Of a DNA stretch of 64,000 nucleotides, positions 2,161-58,473 are shown in pieces (the first letter of the stretch is position 1; every line of letters starts with the position of its first letter). The notes beneath the pieces were generated by a model. It did no database searches and was not told the origin of the DNA. It saw nothing but the letters and a program-made list of their open reading frames with translations. The position numbers were made by a program, and so were the translations under genes. The stretch comes from Candidatus Kaiserbacteria bacterium RIFCSPHIGHO2_02_FULL_49_34 (GTDB lineage Bacteria; Patescibacteriota; Minisyncoccia; Phycocordibacterales; UBA918): assembly GCA_001781205.1 (NCBI GenBank), contig MFLE01000025.1, positions 22,914 to 86,913 of the forward strand, written 5' to 3'.

Positions 2161-2320
2161 AACGCAATCAAAATCAAAACAAAAAACAATCGATTGCTCG
2201 ATTGTTTTTTACAACATCTCCTACCACTCCATTACGAGGTTTGTATCTATCAGCTACGGAACTGGGGGATGTGGATTATGTGATGTCTACACCTCAAAAG
2301 TTTTTCTGATGTCTTGTTTA

Positions 2321-3049: not shown

Positions 3050-3323
3050 GAATAATACCTACAGTATACACAGATAGTTTACATTGTAAACTATCTTTAC
3101 CAATAAACGTGCGTGATCCATTTATTGCACAATCAAATGGAAAACAAAAAACAATCGATTGCTCGATTGTTTTTTTGCTGTTCTGCGAACGTTCTGAGGA
3201 CTTTCAAAATTGGATGAAATTGTGCTGGTTGGAGTAAAATTTTCTCGGGGCCGTACTTTAAGTACGGTGAGGAGGAAATTTTGCGAAACCAGTGCGAGTT
3301 CGCCAATTTTGGAAGTTCTTCAA

Positions 3324-9965: not shown

Positions 9966-10040
9966 AGCCTACCTCCACCTGAAATGCAAAAACACGTAGT
10001 ACGATATGACTCTGGATCCCGTCAGGATGAGGAGGTGAAT

Positions 10041-10182
10041 TGGTACGAAGTGCCAAGAGTGGCTGCCCTGGGGTACAAATTTTGAGTGTAATGCCTCAAA
10101 TTATTTGATGGTTAAAATCGATTTTTACCATCTCTTTCTTCAGAGTGTCATACCCTCATTTTGTCATCCTGACGGGATCCAG
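10041..10182. repeat. MITE-like palindromic element, type A (copy 1)
   Basis: Terminal inverted repeats CTGGATCCCGTCAGGATGA…/…TTTGTCATCCTGACGGGATCCAG flank a central palindrome GATGGTTAAAATCGATTTTTACCATC. An extra fragment of type C TIR (cccgaggatgaca) lies at ~10285-10299. Confidence 0.7.
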
Positions 10183-10349
10183 GCGTTAGAGAAGCAGCTT
10201 CTCAGCCTGAATCCCCGGGTCATTTGAAAATATAGTCGCTATGGTTCGAGAGACTCACCATAAATCGCTCCTTGTTTTCATGATGCCCGAGGATGACAAT
10301 TCTTTGAGATCTTTGCTACATAACAAAAAATCCCTTGCGGGATTATTTG

Positions 10350-12314
10350 TTACGCATTTAATGTTGCGTAGCGAGTTGAATCGATGGTGAGCCACCCATG
10401 TTCGGTTGGATACGTACCACGAGCCTTCGCAACAAGTGCGTCAAACATTGCTTTCTGAGCAAATGCAGTGTGTGCAGATGCCTGAATCGCTGCGATAACT
10501 TCGTCAGTGACAAAGATATGCTCTTGTGCGGCGTACTGTGCGAGCGAGAATACTGGCTCTTCTGCAACTGCGCCAAACATCTTTTCGAAGTTGTCGTCAG
10601 TTGGAAGATTTGCAACAGGCAATGCAACAGGTGTTGCAACTGCATGAGAGACATGCGCAACTGATGCTACGGGTGCTGCTGGCGTTTCTACTGCCGCTAC
10701 AAGCGAAGCACCATATTTACGCTGCATAACATAGTATGCAATACCAACTGCCCAAATACCAAGCAAGACATAGAAGAGTACCGTCATGGTCGGACCTGCA
10801 TCGAAACCAGTGTATGGTACGTTTGCAAGCGGCACACGATCAACTGAGATGTCTCCTGAAACGGTAGTGGTATCAACAGAAACTGAACAGGTATCAGAAC
10901 CATTGTTGTTCTGCACCTTCATGGTGTAGGTAACATTTTGGTTTGGAATCACGGTCTGACTGCCACTGTTTGGGCTGCGTGAGGTGTTTGTGTCGGCTGA
11001 AATGATAACGTTACCATACTGGTCACGAATCGTCATTTCTTTTGCGCGAGTGTTGTCCCACGTGAGGAGCACTGGCATACCACGCTTTACCACACGGTCA
11101 GAAACACGGAGGTCACAGATTGGTGCAGATCCTGAAGTTGTAGATTCTCGTTCTACCGTAATAGACTTTGTACACGTATCAACATCACCCTTTGCATTGT
11201 ATGCCTTCATTTTGAAGGTTGTTGAGGTGCGCGGGTAGACAGTGCGTGAACCTGAAGTGTCAGACGTTGAAACAATTGATTCACCGTTGTCATCAGTTAT
11301 CACGACACGTGTTGCATTACTGGTATTCCAAGTAAGCTTCACGCTGTCGCCACGAGTGATTGAGGAATCCGAAATCGTGAGGTGACATACTGGCGCTGAG
11401 ACTGCAGTCTCGGTTACCGTAATTGACTTAGTACACGTATCAACAGCACCTGCTGCGTTATATGCCTTCATAGTGAAGGTTGTTGATGTGCGTGGGTAGA
11501 TTTCGCGTGAACTTGAAACATCAGTCGTTGAAACAATTGTTTCTCCGTTGCCGTCAGTAATGACAACACGTGTTGCGTTTGCACCACCCCATGAAAGGGT
11601 TACTGCATCGCCACGAGTGATTGAGGTATCTGAAAGTGAAAGACTACATACGGGAGCAGGATAGGTTGGAGGAGTCGGCGTTGTTGGTGGAACGTACGTT
11701 GGCGGCTCATAATACCAATCATTGCCGTAATCCCAGTCGTACGTATACGTTACAGGAGCATACGAGTAGCCAGTATTCCAAGAAACTGGTTCGTAAGAAT
11801 ATGACGGAGATTCGTATGACCAGTCGTTCGAACCATAATCATACTCATAATTCCAGTCAGTTGAGCCGTAATCGTAGCTATAATCCCAGCCAGTAGACCC
11901 ATAGTCGTAGGTTGTATTGTAGTCAGTTGAGCCGTAATCGTAGGTTGTATTATATCCCGTTGATCCATAATCATACGTGGTATTGTATCCAGTTGATCCG
12001 TAATCATACGTAGTGTTATAGCCAGTTGAACCATAATCATAGGTCGTGTTGTAACCCGTTGATCCATAATCGTACGTGGTATTGTATCCAGTAGACCCAT
12101 AGTCATACGTGTTGTTATAGCCCGTAGAACCATAATCATAGCTTGTATTGTACCCGGTTGAACCATAGCCGTAGCCATAATCATACCCTGTTGATCCATA
12201 GTCATAGCTATAGTTCCAGTCCCATGCATCCGCACGAACGACACCCGGAAGTGCGAGTGAGACAGTGAGAAGCGCAATAGCAATTCCCGAAGTGATTTTT
12301 GAAATGATGTTCAT
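10350..12314 (-). CDS. large repeat-containing surface protein (signal peptide, Tyr-rich 11-mer repeats, 3 Ig-like repeats, TM anchor, cytoplasmic tail)
   Basis: Start at MNIISKITSGIAIALLTVSLALPGVVRA (cleavable signal peptide). About 12 tandem YDYGSTGYNTT repeats. Pro/Thr linker PPTYVPPTTPTPPTYPAPV. Three ~90-aa homologous modules, each with a Cys pair (C..LS.SD..I.RGD.V.L.W....A...I.D..G..IVS..D.S.SR..YPRTSTTF.MKAYNA.G.VDTCTKSITV). Then TM helix VLFYVLLGIWAVGIAYYVM and a ~130-aa tail. Confidence 0.7.
   Translation of the reverse strand: MNIISKITSGIAIALLTVSLALPGVVRADAWDWNYSYDYGSTGYDYGYGYGSTGYNTSYDYGSTGYNNTYDYGSTGYNTTYDYGSTGYNTTYDYGSTGYNTTYDYGSTGYNTTYDYGSTGYNTTYDYGSTDYNTTYDYGSTGWDYSYDYGSTDWNYEYDYGSNDWSYESPSYSYEPVSWNTGYSYAPVTYTYDWDYGNDWYYEPPTYVPPTTPTPPTYPAPVCSLSLSDTSITRGDAVTLSWGGANATRVVITDGNGETIVSTTDVSSSREIYPRTSTTFTMKAYNAAGAVDTCTKSITVTETAVSAPVCHLTISDSSITRGDSVKLTWNTSNATRVVITDDNGESIVSTSDTSGSRTVYPRTSTTFKMKAYNAKGDVDTCTKSITVERESTTSGSAPICDLRVSDRVVKRGMPVLLTWDNTRAKEMTIRDQYGNVIISADTNTSRSPNSGSQTVIPNQNVTYTMKVQNNNGSDTCSVSVDTTTVSGDISVDRVPLANVPYTGFDAGPTMTVLFYVLLGIWAVGIAYYVMQRKYGASLVAAVETPAAPVASVAHVSHAVATPVALPVANLPTDDNFEKMFGAVAEEPVFSLAQYAAQEHIFVTDEVIAAIQASAHTAFAQKAMFDALVAKARGTYPTEHGWLTIDSTRYATLNA
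11790..12225 (-). repeat. tandem 33-nt coding repeats (YDYGSTGYNTT x ~12) within the surface protein gene
   Basis: Near-identical 33-nt units visible in the nucleotide sequence (…gtagacccatagtcatacgtg(g/t)t(a/g)ttgta…). They encode the Tyr/Gly/Thr-rich 11-mer. Confidence 0.8.
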
Positions 12315-12432
12315 ATATTTTTTTATGTGAGACAATGTCTCATTCTGCCGACAAGCATAATACAGGGACGAATCATTCAAAGAGAATGATTCGTCCATGG
12401 GATATGCATCCCGAAATGTGTATGAAAGGAAC

Positions 12433-12939
12433 TTAACTTTTTTTCTCCGACACCATGAGAATAGCGCGCCCCGGAACCGGAGAACCGATCCGCATGGAGA
12501 CAGCCGCACCGCCCGAAGGCTTCACGGTGATGTTGAGCGGATATTCGCCGACAACATCGCCAGGCACCATTTCAATGGCTTCGCCACCGATAAGATGCAG
12601 GCTTTTGGTTGCCGTGCGACCGGCCGAGGTGACAATCGTCAGCTCGACACGCTCGCTATCACACCACTTCCCTGCAGCCATGGTTTTCTGGACCCAGGCT
12701 TTGAAGCTGGGGTCCTGCATGGGCATCGGTGGCTTGACGGTAACGCAGTGCATCACCAGCGTCATCGGCGGTGCCGCGGGACGTTGTTGTTGCTGTTGCT
12801 GTACCATTTCGACTTGTTGCGGCCCCATGACACCAGTTTGCTGCGATTGCGACCGTTGGGGCGCAGTCGACGAGCAGCCACTGCATGCGGCGAGCAGAAC
12901 GGGGATGGAAGCAATGCAAGCGATTTTTGCGATATTCAT
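12433..12939 (-). CDS. lipoprotein, Gln-rich
   Basis: Signal peptide plus lipobox MNIAKIACIASIPVLLAACSG (LLAAC). Poly-Gln stretch. Sits between the L,D-transpeptidase and surface-protein genes on the same strand. Confidence 0.55.
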   Translation of the reverse strand: MNIAKIACIASIPVLLAACSGCSSTAPQRSQSQQTGVMGPQQVEMVQQQQQQRPAAPPMTLVMHCVTVKPPMPMQDPSFKAWVQKTMAAGKWCDSERVELTIVTSAGRTATKSLHLIGGEAIEMVPGDVVGEYPLNITVKPSGGAAVSMRIGSPVPGRAILMVSEKKS

Positions 12940-15619: not shown

Positions 15620-15699
15620 CTAAAATTCCTTTTGAACATTTTCAAACCCTCCCCGCCCACCGGGGAGTTTTCTTTTATATGTAGAGATCCAAGCAAAGA

Positions 15700-15742
15700 A
15701 AAACCGCCAGAGGTCTTGCGACATGGCGGTAGTATATTTTTT
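15700..15742. terminator. bidirectional rho-independent terminator (copy 1 of a duplicated ~48-bp module)
   Basis: accgcca...tggcggt stem with T-tracts on both sides. The same module recurs at 16385-16427. Confidence 0.6.
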
Positions 15743-15812
15743 GCGCATGGTAATTACATTACCCACACAGCATCAAACAATGATACGCCCTCCCAGTTCC
15801 TGACGGGCGGTG

Positions 15813-16232
15813 TTAGTCGCCTAAGATGGAACGGACAGCTTCGGTTCGTGAGTGTTCGCATGTGAGATGAAGCCTGATCTTCACATTGAACGTGGACGCC
15901 ATTCCCCCGGCAAGTTCTTGGACCTGCGCGAGATTCTCGCGACCATGTAGCTCAAAGATCCAATCCCCTTCAGTGGCGTTGCGCAGAGAGTCTTTGAACC
16001 AGATAGTTCCGAGAAACTTCCGCCGAGGCTGTACCGTGATAAGGCCGAAAAAATATTCCTTCGGCACCGCGCCAGGAATCTTCTGTAAGATGCCAAGGCT
16101 GTCAGTTACTTTCAGCGGAGCTCCTGCGATGCCAGAACTGGTGGCAAGGTCGAAGCCTTTTGCGAGAAGGAACTCTCCAGCTTTAATCGAGACATGCTCA
16201 GCATAATCAACAAGCGATACATTCGCGTTCAT
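15813..16232 (-). CDS. hypothetical protein (paralog of 22028..22450)
   Basis: Start at MNANVSLVD with GGAG 7 nt upstream. ~50% identical to the product of 22028..22450 (HVSIK.G.FL..KGFDL...G.A.P.LKVT.S.GILQK......YFFGLIT...QPRR.FLGTIWFKD.......W...L.GRENL...Q.LAG.M.S.FNV.IR..L..EHSR.E). Confidence 0.55.
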   Translation of the reverse strand: MNANVSLVDYAEHVSIKAGEFLLAKGFDLATSSGIAGAPLKVTDSLGILQKIPGAVPKEYFFGLITVQPRRKFLGTIWFKDSLRNATEGDWIFELHGRENLAQVQELAGGMASTFNVKIRLHLTCEHSRTEAVRSILGD

Positions 16233-16384
16233 GGTCACACTCCGTAAGGTACAATCAGTTGTATTAAACCAACATGATTTAATAGTAATGCTATTAATGC
16301 CACAACAGACACAGGGTGTCAAATACCTTTCTCTTATTATCTCTCTCGCAATGTCGTATTCCAGAGTTTCTTCCAAGCAAAGAA

Positions 16385-16427
16385 AAACCGCCAGAGGTCT
16401 TGCGACATGGCGGTAGAATATTTTGTG
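16385..16427. terminator. bidirectional terminator (copy 2 of the duplicated module)
   Basis: 45/48 nt identical to 15697-15744. Hairpin with T-tracts on both strands. Confidence 0.55.
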
Positions 16428-43402: not shown

Positions 43403-43497
43403 GTTTGGGAGTATACCTTGGAACTGGTACGGATGGAAATTTTAGCCACCCAGACAACATTGTTGTACGCGCATAATCAATCGACAAACCCTACGAA

Positions 43498-43667
43498 CTG
43501 TCATCCTCGGGATTTAGGAAACAAATGAGGAAGCCTTTCCGAATATTGTTTTCAAATACCCGGGGATCCATGGATTACGAGCAGTGCTTTTTATCCATGG
43601 ATCCCCGGGTATTTTAAAAATATACTCCGCTTTGCTACGTTATTTTTATGAATCCCGAGGATGACAG
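43498..43667. repeat. MITE-like palindromic element, type C
   Basis: 17-bp TIRs CTGTCATCCTCGGGATT / AATCCCGAGGATGACAG enclose an inner 19-bp inverted repeat TACCCGGGGATCCATGGAT…ATCCATGGATCCCCGGGTA. Confidence 0.7.
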
Positions 43668-43677
43668 TTCTGGCTGG

Positions 43678-46293: not shown

Positions 46294-46391
46294 TATCTAA
46301 TGAACTACCCCGCGGCGCATGCCCGGGGTAGTTCATTAGATATAACATCTCCAGCATTCACTACTTATCCCTACAAGGCTATCCTCTTTAC

Positions 46392-46530
46392 TTTTGTCAT
46401 CCTGGAAGGATCCAGAGCGTATTACCCATCACTTGATTTCTCATAAACTTTACTTCCAAGCACTACGTTGCCCAATATCCAAATCTCAAGTACCTAGTTT
46501 CGACTCTGGATCCTTCCAGGATGACAAAAG
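46392..46530. repeat. MITE-like palindromic element, type B
   Basis: TIRs TTTTGTCATCCTGGAAGGATCCAGAG / CTCTGGATCCTTCCAGGATGACAAAAG, 26 bp each, ~87 bp apart. Variant of the type A TIR. Preceded by a separate 20-bp-stem perfect hairpin at 46295-46346 just after the wbaP-like stop. Confidence 0.7.
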
Positions 46531-46564
46531 TGGGGTGTATGGCTTTAAAATATTTCCTGGTTAA

Positions 46565-48622
<2,058 letters not shown>

Positions 48623-48628
48623 TCCCTC

Positions 48629-48756
48629 ACTCCTGGATCCCGTCAGGATGACAAATGTTGGGTGCAGTGTTTAAATGAATTAGAAGTTAAAATCGATTTT
48701 AACCATCTACTAATTTTGAGCATCGCCCCTCATTTTGTCATCCTGACGGGATCCAT
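48629..48756. repeat. MITE-like palindromic element, type A (copy 2)
   Basis: ACTCCTGGATCCCGTCAGGATGACAAATG… / …CCCCTCATTTTGTCATCCTGACGGGATCCATG with central GTTAAAATCGATTTTAACC palindrome. Lies between ligA and the methyltransferase gene. Confidence 0.75.
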
Positions 48757-48814
48757 GTGTTAGAGCGTATACCTCGAACTTTGCATTTGTGCATCTATCT
48801 GTTATACATACATT

Positions 48815-58370: not shown

Positions 58371-58418
58371 ACAAACAGTATACCGCATATTTCGGAAAAC
58401 ACGCAAAAAGTGAATAAG

Positions 58419-58461
58419 GTCCGACCTTCCTCATGGCATTGCCATGAGGAAGGTCGGACCT
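58419..58461 (-). terminator. 21-bp perfect-stem hairpin (terminator of rnc, upstream of the pilin promoter)
   Basis: ggtccgaccttcctcatggca-t-tgccatgaggaaggtcggacc. Followed on the minus strand by a T-rich stretch. Confidence 0.6.
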
Positions 58462-58473
58462 TATTCACTCATC

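What the first reader, a model, noticed from the sequence alone, without database searches (positions are those of the whole stretch)
10005..10330. Family of ~140-170 bp palindromic MITE-like elements sharing a GTCATCCTG(A/G) core, ≥5 copies in 64 kb
Elements at 10041-10182, 48629-48756 and 60479-60618 have near-identical 30-38-bp terminal inverted repeats (CTGGATCCCGTCAGGATGACAAAATGAGGG) and a central perfect palindrome GGTTAAAATCGATTTTAACC. Variants with related TIRs occur at 46392-46530 (…GTCATCCTGGAAGGATCCAGAG) and 43498-43667 (CTGTCATCCTCGGGATT, with a nested second palindrome). A solo TIR fragment lies at ~10285-10299. All copies are intergenic, at gene ends or between convergent or divergent genes. 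The whole element can fold as one long hairpin. The density (roughly 1 per 12 kb) and the sequence drift between copies suggest a mobile non-autonomous element family or a REP/BIME-like structured repeat that a transposase, nuclease or retron-like system might recognise.
Basis: seen in the sequence. Interest (0 to 1): 0.6.

Follow-up and report, generated by a model that had tools for sequence, protein, structure and literature searches.

The report
Nuclease-target hairpin repeats in Kaiserbacteria
The ~140-base palindromic elements are real. Their ends are short hairpin repeats of the kind that a small single-strand DNA nuclease (Ssn) recognises in Neisseria and many other bacteria, and here they occur in a tiny-genome CPR bacterium in a new, short-stemmed, paired form.

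Summary
The window comes from a groundwater Candidatus Kaiserbacteria (CPR). It carries three full ~140-180-bp palindromic elements (10011-10191, 48626-48765, 60479-60620), one second-family element (43495-43670) and several partial copies. A sister species has at least 28 copies in about 706 kb.

The "TIRs" are not transposon ends. Each is an oriented hairpin unit: TTTTGTC | ATCC - loop - GGAT | CCAG. This matches the CGTC/TGTC-tagged REP superfamily (Neisseria dRS3/NTS, Rickettsia RPE-4 and RPE-6), which is the recognition motif of Ssn, a small GIY-YIG nuclease specific for single-stranded DNA.

- The short stem keeps pairing through a compensatory change: C-G in 63 units, T-A in 11, none mixed.
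- At shared sites in different species the units are 80-92% conserved and the interior about 61%.
- Two clean empty versus filled sites show no target-site duplication.
- In two sister Kaiserbacteria a 100-aa GIY-YIG gene sits between inverted units. Its homologues in four other lineages are also next to such hairpins.
- No such gene, and no transposase, was found in the window or its flanks.

Verdict: a new variant of a known kind (short stems, tag-inward dimers with a conserved spacer, CPR host). Binding and cleavage by the nuclease are inferred, not shown.

The parts
10011..10191 (.). Family-A copy 1: an inverted pair of hairpin units with the tags facing inward. The left unit (10011-10030) has lost its tag. 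A 45-nt inserted module follows at 10031-10075. The centre palindrome is at 10110-10129 and the right unit at 10159-10183.
   Evidence: The same 45-nt module is present in non-orthologous copies L082 and L060.
10209..10301 (.). Right half of a family-B element, joined directly to copy 1. Its B-type unit (CCCGAGGATGACAA, minus-strand orientation) is at about 10283-10299. A 25-nt mini-insert lies at 10243-10267.
   Evidence: The same A+B composite occurs at a non-orthologous locus in L060.
43495..43670 (.). Full family-B element: an inverted pair with the tags facing outward. Units CTGTCATCCTCGGGAT are at 43500-43513 (+) and 43652-43665 (-), around a nested palindrome (arms 43523-43583 and 43585-43645).
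   Evidence: (I4, I21). One search found at least 10 further B copies or halves in related genomes.
46375..46417 (+). Solo right end of a family-A element, with unit TTTTGTCATCCTGGAAGGATCCAGAG at 46392-46417. Together with the next part it forms a tag-outward pair with an 86-nt spacer.
   Evidence: (I10). This intergenic stretch is absent in species Y.
46504..46610 (-). Left half of a family-A element. The unit is at 46505-46529 in minus-strand orientation, followed by the arm and a centre that is interrupted by a 25-nt mini-insert at 46568-46593. It ends 20 nt before the ligA ATG.
   Evidence: (D4, D16).
48626..48765 (.). Family-A copy 2, starting 3 nt after the ligA stop codon. Units are at 48632-48656 (-) and 48733-48757 (+); the centre is at 48685-48704.
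   Evidence: The same site is occupied in species Y.
60479..60620 (.). Family-A copy 3, the best-preserved copy. Units are at 60485-60509 (-) and 60588-60612 (+); the perfect centre GGTTAAAATCGATTTTAACC is at 60539-60558. It lies between tRNA-His (-) and a csoR-like ORF (+).
   Evidence: (I1).
61003..61027 (-). Truncated unit (CTCTACCACCTGGATCCTTCCAGG) between the csoR-like ORF and the copper-ATPase gene, ending 10 nt before the ATG. Sister species M has a full element at this site.

Best explanation
**What it is.** The elements are inverted pairs of a short, oriented hairpin repeat. Each unit has a T-run and a GTC tag, a 4-5-bp stem that begins A-T, T-A (ATCC(T)...(A)GGAT), a 3-5-nt loop, then a C and the tail CAG. 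This is a short-stemmed version of the CGTC/TGTC-tagged REP superfamily, which includes Neisseria dRS3/NTS and the 'Ssn-related motifs'.

- In family A, two units face each other with the tags inward, around a conserved, self-complementary spacer of about 90 nt.
- In family B, and in the 46.4-kb pair, the tags face outward.
- The modules also recombine into mosaics.

**How it most likely works (inferred by homology).**
1. When the DNA is single-stranded (during DNA uptake, lagging-strand replication or repair), a unit presents its stem and tag.
2. A small single-domain GIY-YIG nuclease of the Ssn family binds the unit.
3. The nuclease nicks a few nucleotides 5' of the tag.

In two sister Kaiserbacteria the nuclease gene itself sits between two inverted units, which is the same layout as NTS-ssnA-NTS.

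**Shown here.** Copies are gained and lost between species without target-site duplication. Where a copy persists, the units stay conserved while the interior drifts.

**The window's own genome.** No ssn gene was detected. Its copies are therefore either orphans left after loss of the nuclease, or are served from elsewhere in the genome. They would still form very stable hairpins in any transcript that crosses them.
For: **Repeat family.** The family is real and non-random. The organism is Candidatus Kaiserbacteria. In sister species M, 21 loci were found in the MAG, and at least 28 copies lie on two contigs totalling 706 kb.

**Unit anatomy.** Among 27 distinct unit sequences, GAC (the tag) and the stem ends are invariant, and the base next to the stem is at least 90% conserved. 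This corresponds to the positions that mattered for SsnA cleavage (the 3 nt upstream of the palindrome) and for binding (the C just after it) (PMC11893778).

**Match to the CGTC-REP description.** The published description is: tag CGTC, often TGTC; stems beginning with A-T pairs; loops of 4-5 nt; tail CCA; frequent inverted dimers with 20-100-bp spacers, often heterodimers (PMC3733652). The units here fit all of this except stem length.

**Compensatory change in the short stem.** C-G occurs in 63 unit contexts, T-A in 11, and mixed pairs in none. On distinct sequences the count is CG 20, UA 7, with no unpaired cells, and 0 of 500 shuffles reach the observed value. The T-A form usually sits in only one arm of an element. 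The local stem is therefore kept at the expense of the long hairpin.

**Conservation at shared sites.** Units are 80-92% identical and the interior about 61%.

**Gain and loss.**
- M has full copies where W has none: between groES and groEL and at window coordinate ~64.6 kb. Neither site shows a target duplication.
- W has only a truncated unit where M has a full copy.
- Species Y lacks the 250-nt block upstream of ligA.

**Copying of idiosyncratic variants.** The copy with a 45-nt insert, and the A+B composite, both recur at non-orthologous loci.

**Nuclease link.**
- A 100-aa ORF, P0121, carries only a GIY-YIG domain (Pfam E = 7e-15). It sits between inverted units in species M. Its 83% homologue P0122 has the same layout in another species.
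- Homologues in four other lineages have (C/T)GTC-AT...AT-C hairpins next to the gene, on both sides in L136, L142 (Sphingomonas melonis) and L143 (Thermomicrobiales), and upstream only in L146.
Against: - No Ssn-like gene is present in the window or in 16 kb of flanks.
- No W-derived homologue appeared in the protein search.
- The locus orthologous to M's ssn locus lacks the gene on a contig that carries W-type copies (L038).
- The stems are 4-5 bp, against 8-9 bp in described CGTC REPs and NTS.
- An isolated unit is not predicted to fold stably: -1.8 to -3.9 kcal/mol, z not significant.
- The published SRM search pattern finds nothing in the window. It also misses the Sphingomonas and Thermomicrobiales hairpins, so it is a narrow test.
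- In family A the tags face inward, so an Ssn cut 5' of the tag would fall inside the element, not at its borders. That does not explain how the 140-bp unit is copied.
- The T-A compensatory variant may stem from a single event within Kaiserbacteria.
- Family-B units have a T, not a C, after the stem.
- No binding or cleavage was tested here.
Confidence: 0.62

Rival explanations
1. Classical MITE: a deletion derivative of a DDE-transposase insertion sequence, moved by cut-and-paste through its terminal inverted repeats, leaving a TA or TTAG target-site duplication.
For: The elements are 140-180 bp with 30-38-bp inverted ends, are intergenic and multi-copy, and occupancy differs between species. 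Many copies are bordered by CTAG/TTAG/CTAA.
Against: - Two clean empty versus filled site pairs show no duplication. The CTAG beside one filled site already exists in the empty site.
- Sequence conservation peaks in the sub-terminal hairpin unit and decays outward, instead of peaking at the tips.
- The same unit occurs in both relative orientations, as solos, and joined to other modules.
- The compensatory change inside one arm breaks the pairing between the two ends.
- No longer element or transposase with these ends was seen in the window, its flanks or about 130 related loci.
Confidence: 0.07
2. REPIN-type element copied by a RAYT (HUH/Y1 tyrosine transposase), as in Pseudomonas and enterobacterial REPs.
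For: The elements are inverted pairs of REP-like hairpins with a spacer. They show no target duplication, are vertically inherited with species-specific sequence populations, and persist for a long time at orthologous sites. This resembles REPIN biology (abstracts listed).
Against: - The tag is TGTC, not GTAG. CGTC-tagged REPs are reported not to be associated with RAYT genes (PMC3733652).
- A motif scan and a phmmer search with a RAYT found no RAYT in any Kaiserbacteria sequence held.
- The one RAYT found (L111, another organism) is flanked by unrelated REPs.
Confidence: 0.06
3. The elements are chiefly host RNA-level elements: long hairpins selected in place as terminators, RNase III or processing sites, or mRNA stabilisers. 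Their repetition would be incidental.
For: - The predicted hairpins are very stable.
- Copies sit right after stop codons (3 nt after ligA) or between a terminator and the next start codon.
- One copy in species M lies inside the groES-groEL operon.
- An RNase III gene is present in the window.
- REPs of this class are thought to be mostly transcribed (PMC3733652, abstract).
Against: - The part conserved across species is the 25-nt unit with its unpaired tag, not the long stem. The compensatory change favours the small local stem and introduces mismatches into the long one.
- Copies occur between convergent terminators and upstream of divergent genes alike.
- No T-run follows the hairpin.
- No Rfam family matches.
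- This reading does not explain the link with the GIY-YIG gene. It could still be a secondary role.
Confidence: 0.15
4. Integron attC-like recombination sites: imperfect palindromes bounded by CTAAC...GTTAG, resembling the R''/R' core sites.
For: The outer borders often read (G)CTCTAAC...GTTAGAG(C), close to RYYYAAC...GTTRRRY. The length of about 140 bp is within the attC range.
Against: - Copies are dispersed between housekeeping genes (ligA, tRNA-His, groESL, PBP), not arranged in a cassette array.
- No integrase is present in the window.
- The border tetranucleotide pre-exists in an empty site.
- The outermost core position does not fit the attC consensus.
Confidence: 0.01

Closest known systems
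NTS / Ssn-related motifs (SRM) with the Ssn GIY-YIG single-strand nuclease (Chenal et al. 2025, PMC11893778)
   Same: - An oriented hairpin repeat with a (C/T)GTC tag just 5' of a palindrome that begins AT, and a C just after it.
- Many intergenic copies.
- A roughly 100-aa single-domain GIY-YIG gene flanked by the repeats in sister species.
- Homologues of that gene in other phyla are likewise flanked.
   Different: - The stem is 4-5 bp instead of about 9 bp.
- The units do not fit the published SRM search pattern.
- Units are built into 140-180-bp palindromic composites with conserved spacers.
- The host is a CPR bacterium, a group not mentioned in the paper's main text.
- The window's own genome shows no ssn gene.
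- No biochemical test was done.
CGTC-tagged REP families, including Neisseria dRS3 and Rickettsia RPE-4/RPE-6 (Di Nocera et al. 2013, PMC3733652)
   Same: - The tag is CGTC/TGTC.
- The first two stem pairs are A-T.
- Loops are about 4-5 nt.
- The tail is CCA.
- Inverted dimers have 20-100-bp spacers, which are often structured.
- Heterodimers occur, in which the two partners differ in stem sequence.
- No associated transposase is known.
   Different: - Described stems are 8-9 bp.
- Described dimers mostly have the tags outside (HH), whereas family A has the tags inside (TT) together with a conserved spacer. In the paper's rule of thumb, conserved spacers are typical of HH dimers.
- Family-B units lack the CCA tail.
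REPINs with RAYT transposases
   Same: - An inverted pair of REP hairpins forms one long hairpin.
- There is no target duplication.
- Sequence populations are species-specific and inherited vertically.
- The candidate enzyme gene is single-copy and flanked by the repeats.
   Different: The tag differs (GTAG in REPINs). The candidate enzyme is a GIY-YIG nuclease, not an HUH/Y1 transposase. No RAYT was found.
Neisseria intergenic mosaic elements (NIMEs) and enterobacterial BIMEs
   Same: Hairpin units alternate with a small set of conserved spacer modules. The modules recombine into mosaics: A+B composites, half copies and nested palindromes.
   Different: These are mostly isolated single composites, not long arrays. 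The module sequences are unrelated.
Correia elements (CREE) and other bacterial MITEs
   Same: Similar size (100-180 bp), inverted ends, intergenic position close to gene starts and ends, and long hairpins in transcripts.
   Different: No TA duplication, no sequence similarity, and the conserved part is a sub-terminal hairpin with a tag, not the tips.

Membership tests
Ssn-related motif (NTS/SRM) repeats | A short inverted repeat that forms a hairpin | tested here: met
   A 4-bp stem (5 bp in some variants) is paired in 99.1% of cells, with one pair switching CG to UA and no mismatches. The stem is much shorter than in NTS, and on its own it is not predicted to be stable.
Ssn-related motif (NTS/SRM) repeats | A conserved non-palindromic tag (HGTC) immediately 5' of the palindrome, which gives the repeat an orientation | tested here: met
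   GAC (= GTC on the unit strand) is invariant in 27 of 27 distinct units and is preceded by a T-run.
Ssn-related motif (NTS/SRM) repeats | A cytosine immediately after the palindrome (the most important base for SsnA binding) | tested here: met
   The corresponding column (G5 in arm orientation) is at least 90% conserved in family-A units. Family-B units have T at this position.
Ssn-related motif (NTS/SRM) repeats | A match to the published degenerate pattern HGTCWYN(0-2)YYVSBRHN(0-5)WNVSBRGN(0-2)RNCYNB | tested here: not met
   There are 0 matches in the window and in the Kaiserbacteria ssn loci. There are also 0 matches in the Sphingomonas and Thermomicrobiales loci whose GIY-YIG genes are visibly flanked by CGTC/TGTC hairpins, so the pattern is narrow.
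Ssn-related motif (NTS/SRM) repeats | Spatial association with a small single-domain GIY-YIG (cd10448) gene, typically flanked on both sides | tested here: inconclusive
   Met in sister species M (L020) and in L132. Not met in the window's genome: no such gene in 80 kb and no W-derived homologue in the database search. Assignment to cd10448 itself could not be tested; Pfam finds a GIY-YIG domain only.
Ssn-related motif (NTS/SRM) repeats | Bound and cut by the cognate nuclease as single-stranded DNA only | not testable with these tools
   This needs a gel-shift and nuclease assay with purified P0121 or P0122.
CGTC-tagged REPs (Di Nocera 2013) | Terminal tag CGTC (often TGTC or CCTC) | tested here: met
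   The tag is TGTC in all family-A and family-B units.
CGTC-tagged REPs (Di Nocera 2013) | A stem of 8-9 bp whose first two pairs are A-T | tested here: not met
   The first two pairs are A-T and T-A, which fits. The stem is only 4-5 bp long, which does not.
CGTC-tagged REPs (Di Nocera 2013) | A loop of 4-5 nt and an unpaired tail CCA | tested here: met
   Loops are 3-5 nt and the tail is CCAG in family A. Family B has the tail TTA.
MITE (derived from a DDE transposon) | Target-site duplication flanking each copy | tested here: not met
   Two clean empty versus filled comparisons between W and M show none.
MITE (derived from a DDE transposon) | A full-length parent element with the same ends that encodes a transposase | tested here: inconclusive
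   None was found in the window, 16 kb of flanks or the related loci. Complete genomes were not available.
REPIN/RAYT | A GTAG tag and a RAYT gene flanked by the repeats | tested here: not met
   The tag is TGTC. No RAYT was found in any Kaiserbacteria sequence held.
Integron attC | Located in a cassette array next to an integron integrase | tested here: not met
   Copies are dispersed among housekeeping genes and no integrase is present.

The most novel reading that the evidence does not exclude
In these CPR bacteria the hairpin dimers and the GIY-YIG gene would form a REPIN/RAYT-like, vertically inherited replicator. Its copying enzyme would be the Ssn-type single-strand nuclease instead of an HUH transposase. 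This would identify the long-missing mobilising enzyme of the whole CGTC-tagged REP superfamily.

The window's genome would then show units still under purifying selection after the nuclease was lost. That would imply a host-level role, for example marking or trimming DNA taken up by an organism that depends on scavenged DNA.
Probability: 0.17. Interest if true: 0.75.

Novelty: new variant of a known kind. Interest (0 to 1): 0.45.

Why it matters
- CGTC-tagged REPs had no known partner enzyme until Ssn was described in 2025, and what Ssn does outside Neisseria is still open.
- A Kaiserbacteria contig set of about 706 kb carries dozens of these units. They have an unusually short stem and are packaged as 140-bp palindromes. 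This extends the system to the Candidate Phyla Radiation.
- It also offers a compact natural comparison: two sister species with the nuclease gene, and a genome in which the gene was not detected.
- CPR bacteria are thought to rely heavily on DNA uptake, and the window's neighbourhood encodes pilus components. A single-strand nuclease with genomic recognition sites could therefore affect how they handle incoming DNA.
- On a practical level, a new short recognition motif would add to the set of sequence-specific ssDNA nucleases.
- The short stems mean that published search patterns would miss elements of this kind.

Tried and rejected
- **Rfam.** Searches at gathering thresholds and at permissive E-values gave only tRNAs and generic hairpin (microRNA-model) hits for the elements.
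- **Literature search by sequence.** Searching the literal motif strings returned only unrelated primer sequences.
- **RAYT.** A regex and a phmmer search found one RAYT, in an unrelated contig (L111). It is flanked by different REPs, so it is irrelevant.
- **C/D-box or k-turn RNA reading of GGATGA...CTGA.** Rejected on inspection, because the two arms are fully complementary.
- **Outward sigma-70 promoter in the ends (TTGTCA + 17 nt).** Considered and rejected. No acceptable -10 element follows, and copies also lie between convergent terminators.
- **Dimeric double-stranded operator reading of ATCC-N5-GGAT.** Rejected, because a coordinated C-to-T and G-to-A change argues for base pairing.
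- **Direct-repeat reading (CCWGGAT twice, 11 nt apart).** It explains the double change less well than the hairpin does.
- **ligA orthologues at about 70% identity (P0003, P0004).** Synteny was not conserved, so they gave no site comparison.
- **Spacer of the 46.4-kb pair.** Tested as a possible remnant of ssn. Only the units themselves match.
- **Viral contig scan.** One hit in 2.9 million contigs, so there is no phage link.
- **Candidate solo unit at 19651.** It looks like a chance match.
- **Failed look-ups.** One contig look-up failed because the protein start did not match the record. No supplementary files of the Ssn paper were available.
Full report

Yes. The 30-nt end sequence occurs four times with at most 3 mismatches, the centre palindrome three times, and GTCATCCTG seven times. 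Shuffled sequence gives 0, 0 and 0.55 respectively. A repeat scan and a profile search place full family-A copies at 10011-10191, 48626-48765 and 60479-60620, a left half at 46504-46610 and a solo right end at 46375-46417. As single strands the full copies fold into one long hairpin, with energies of -34 to -48 kcal/mol and z-scores of -8 to -13.

A second family (B) is complete at 43495-43670 (-56 kcal/mol), and half of a B element is present at about 10209-10301.

Copy 1 begins at 10011 and carries a 45-nt insert. A truncated unit lies at 61003-61027. All copies are intergenic.

**2. Whose genome is it?**

The window is identical to a Rifle groundwater contig. Its LigA is annotated as Candidatus Kaiserbacteria RIFCSPHIGHO2_02_FULL_49. 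I call this species W.

An exact-pattern scan of species-representative genomes found 21 loci in one MAG, Candidatus Kaiserbacteria RIFCSPLOWO2_12_FULL_50_10, which I call species M. M is 74-79% identical to W in shared genes. A metagenome scan recovered the same species on two contigs totalling 706 kb, with at least 28 family-A copies or halves. It also recovered further contigs that carry W-type copies. A third species (Y; LigA 88% identical) and a fourth (locus L132) also carry the elements. Only one match was found in 2.9 million viral contigs.

**3. Anatomy of the ends.**

Aligning 32 full copies shows that the conserved part is not the tip. It is a sub-terminal unit which, read on its own strand, is TTTTGTC-ATCC(T)-loop-(A)GGAT-CCAG(G). 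Similarity decays further out (consensus ...GCGYTAGAGC) and further in.

The four stem pairs are formed in 99% of cells. One pair switches from C-G (63 unit contexts) to T-A (11 contexts), with no mixed cases. In those elements only one arm carries the T-A form. The small local stem is therefore kept even though this puts mismatches into the long hairpin. On its own the unit is too short to be predicted stable.

The same unit appears in three arrangements:
- in both relative orientations (tags inward in family A; tags outward in family B and in the 46.4-kb pair);
- as solos;
- fused to other modules, as in the A+B composites at 10011-10301, in L060 and in L029.

**4. The same unit elsewhere.**

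About 60 unrelated metagenome and genome contigs matched the search pattern. Roughly a third of them show pairs of the form TTTGTCAT(C/T)C...G(G/A)ATC - spacer - GGATCC...GGATGACAAA. These include Chryseobacterium and other Bacteroidetes, and contigs that look acidobacterial or Thermomicrobiales-like. Again ATCC/GGAT or ATTC/GAAT combinations occur, and the two partners often differ.

This matches the published description of CGTC-tagged REPs (PMC3733652):
- tag CGTC, often TGTC;
- stems beginning with two A-T pairs;
- loops of 4-5 nt;
- tail CCA;
- frequent inverted dimers with 20-100-bp spacers, often heterodimers;
- no associated transposase;
- members include Neisseria dRS3 and Rickettsia RPE-4 and RPE-6.

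The published stems are 8-9 bp. Here they are 4-5 bp.

**5. Evolutionary behaviour.**

*Shared sites.* The copy after ligA is present in both W and Y. A copy that is full in a W-type contig is half-length in M. A third site is occupied in both. At these sites the units are 80-92% identical and the interior about 61%, against 74-83% for the flanking DNA. The units are therefore constrained, or homogenised, after insertion.

*Differing sites.*
- M has a full copy between groES and groEL, where W has a 1-nt spacer.
- M has another full copy where W has none, at window coordinate ~64.6 kb.
- M has a full copy where W keeps only 25 nt.
- Y lacks the 250-nt block upstream of ligA.

Neither clean empty/filled pair shows a target-site duplication. 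The CTAG next to one filled site is already present in the empty site.

*Copying of variants.* Idiosyncratic variants (the 45-nt insert; the A+B composite) recur at non-orthologous loci, so units of this size have been copied. W-type and M-type copies differ in their centres: GGTTAAAATCGATTTTAACC in W and TAGTTAAATCCACGTGGATTTAACTA in M. These are species-specific sequence populations.

**6. The partner gene.**

While aligning one shared site I found that M carries a 100-codon ORF between a half copy and a full copy. It is bracketed by two inverted ATTC/GAAT-type units. The contig with W-type copies lacks the ORF. The ORF has only a GIY-YIG domain (Pfam E = 7e-15; weak match to the UPF0213 structure 1zg2).

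Its 83% homologue in another Kaiserbacteria has the same layout: unit, gene, full element. Its next-closest homologues come from Sphingomonas, Novosphingobium, Hyphomicrobium, Thermomicrobiales and Acidobacteria, and many sit on very short contigs. In all four other lineages I inspected, (C/T)GTC-AT...AT-C hairpins lie next to the gene, and in three of them on both sides.

A literature search then showed that this link is already known. Chenal et al. 2025 (PMC11893778) describe Ssn:
- It is a family of small single-domain GIY-YIG nucleases (cd10448).
- It binds the hairpin repeat NTS (CGTCATTCCCGCGMAVGCGGGAATCYRG, which contains dRS3) only as single-stranded DNA, and cuts a few nucleotides upstream.
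- The three bases before the palindrome matter for cutting, and the C after it for binding.
- The genes are typically arranged NTS-ssnA-NTS.
- In N. meningitidis the system lowers integration of transforming DNA that carries NTS.

The paper's main text does not mention CPR bacteria.

**7. Interpretation.**

The elements are best read as composites built from Ssn-type recognition hairpins. They are a short-stemmed, dimeric variant of the NTS/SRM or CGTC-REP class. Kaiserbacteria species M and the L132 species carry the cognate nuclease gene.

What is shown:
- the repeat family and its unit structure;
- the compensatory change;
- conservation of the units at shared sites;
- gain and loss without target duplication;
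- the position of the gene between units in two Kaiserbacteria;
- hairpins of the same class next to the gene's homologues in four other lineages.

What is inferred from the Neisseria and Wolbachia experiments: binding and nicking of single-stranded DNA, and any role in DNA uptake.

How the 140-bp composite is copied is unknown. With the tags inward, a cut 5' of the tag would fall inside the element.

In W I found no ssn gene in the window, in 16 kb of flanks or in the protein database, and no transposase. W's copies may therefore be orphans. This conclusion is limited, because I did not have W's complete genome.

**8. Rivals.**

- A DDE-type MITE is unlikely. There is no duplication and no parent element, conservation peaks away from the tips, and the unit is modular.
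- A RAYT-driven REPIN is unlikely. The tag is wrong and no RAYT was found.
- An RNA-level role (terminator, processing site or stabiliser) may well exist as a secondary effect, given the positions next to stop and start codons and inside groESL in M. It does not explain which part is conserved, or the nuclease link.
- An attC reading fails on genomic context.

**9. Novelty and score.**

The kind is known: CGTC REPs since 2013 and Ssn/NTS since 2025. The new points are the CPR host, the 4-5-bp stem that escapes the published search pattern, the tag-inward dimers with a conserved structured spacer, the mosaic with a second family, and a genome in which the nuclease gene was not detected. I rate this a new variant of a known kind, of moderate interest.

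Noticed in passing
window 11797-12225: About 13 tandem copies of a 33-nt (11-codon) repeat lie inside the 719-aa ORF 10350..12509 (minus strand). That ORF has no Pfam domain on record.
   Followed up: no
window 58409-58469: A perfect 30+30-nt palindrome (AGTGAATAAGGTCCGACCTTCCTCATGGCA / its complement) lies between a pilin-like gene and the RNase III gene. It is unrelated in sequence to the element families.
   Followed up: no
window 15990-16324 and 21936-22273: Two inverted repeats (43 nt at 91% and 64 nt at 80%) bracket a block of about 5.6 kb. The block holds a ManC-like gene, a GT11 glycosyltransferase and an endonuclease/exonuclease/phosphatase-family gene. This may be an inverted duplication or an invertible or mobile segment inside the polysaccharide cluster.
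   Followed up: partly
window 10243-10267 and 46568-46593: The same ~25-nt insert (GGWTCGASARNCTCACCATAAATCG) interrupts two different repeat elements. It is absent from the corresponding copy in L060 and from the other family-A centres.
   Followed up: partly
window 10031-10075; L082 ~620-665; L060 ~10590-10635: A 45-nt module (GGAGGTGAATTGGYRCGRAGTRCCAAGAG...CCCTGGGGTAC, with its own small hairpin) replaces the tag of one unit in three copies at non-orthologous loci.
   Followed up: yes
L083 4903-5069 (species M) versus L150 17898-17900 (species W): Species M carries a full element plus 20 nt between groES and groEL. In W the two genes are 1 nt apart. The element is therefore tolerated inside an essential operon.
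   Followed up: yes
window 46605-46633; L131 ~225-255: ligA is preceded by a conserved TGCTATACT (like an extended -10) that ends about 12 nt before the ATG, with no obvious Shine-Dalgarno sequence. This suggests a very short leader or a leaderless mRNA.
   Followed up: no
window 60676-60684: A run of nine G lies upstream of the csoR-like ORF, between the element and the gene. It could be a slippage-prone tract.
   Followed up: no
window 2165-2210 and 3130-3175; 15688-15743 and 16372-16427: Two pairs of near-identical 46-56-nt terminator-like sequences (93-96% identical) are repeated after neighbouring genes.
   Followed up: no
L136 ~1140-1500 (unrelated phylum): Next to a GIY-YIG gene flanked by TGTC/CGTC hairpins lies a gene-less version. 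It has the same upstream hairpin, then the first 13 nt of the ORF, then directly the downstream hairpin. It looks like a deletion derivative of the unit-gene-unit cassette.
   Followed up: partly
L009, L012, L018, L045, L089 (Chryseobacterium): A tag-outward hairpin pair with a ~45-nt spacer is conserved at the same locus in several Chryseobacterium species.
   Followed up: no
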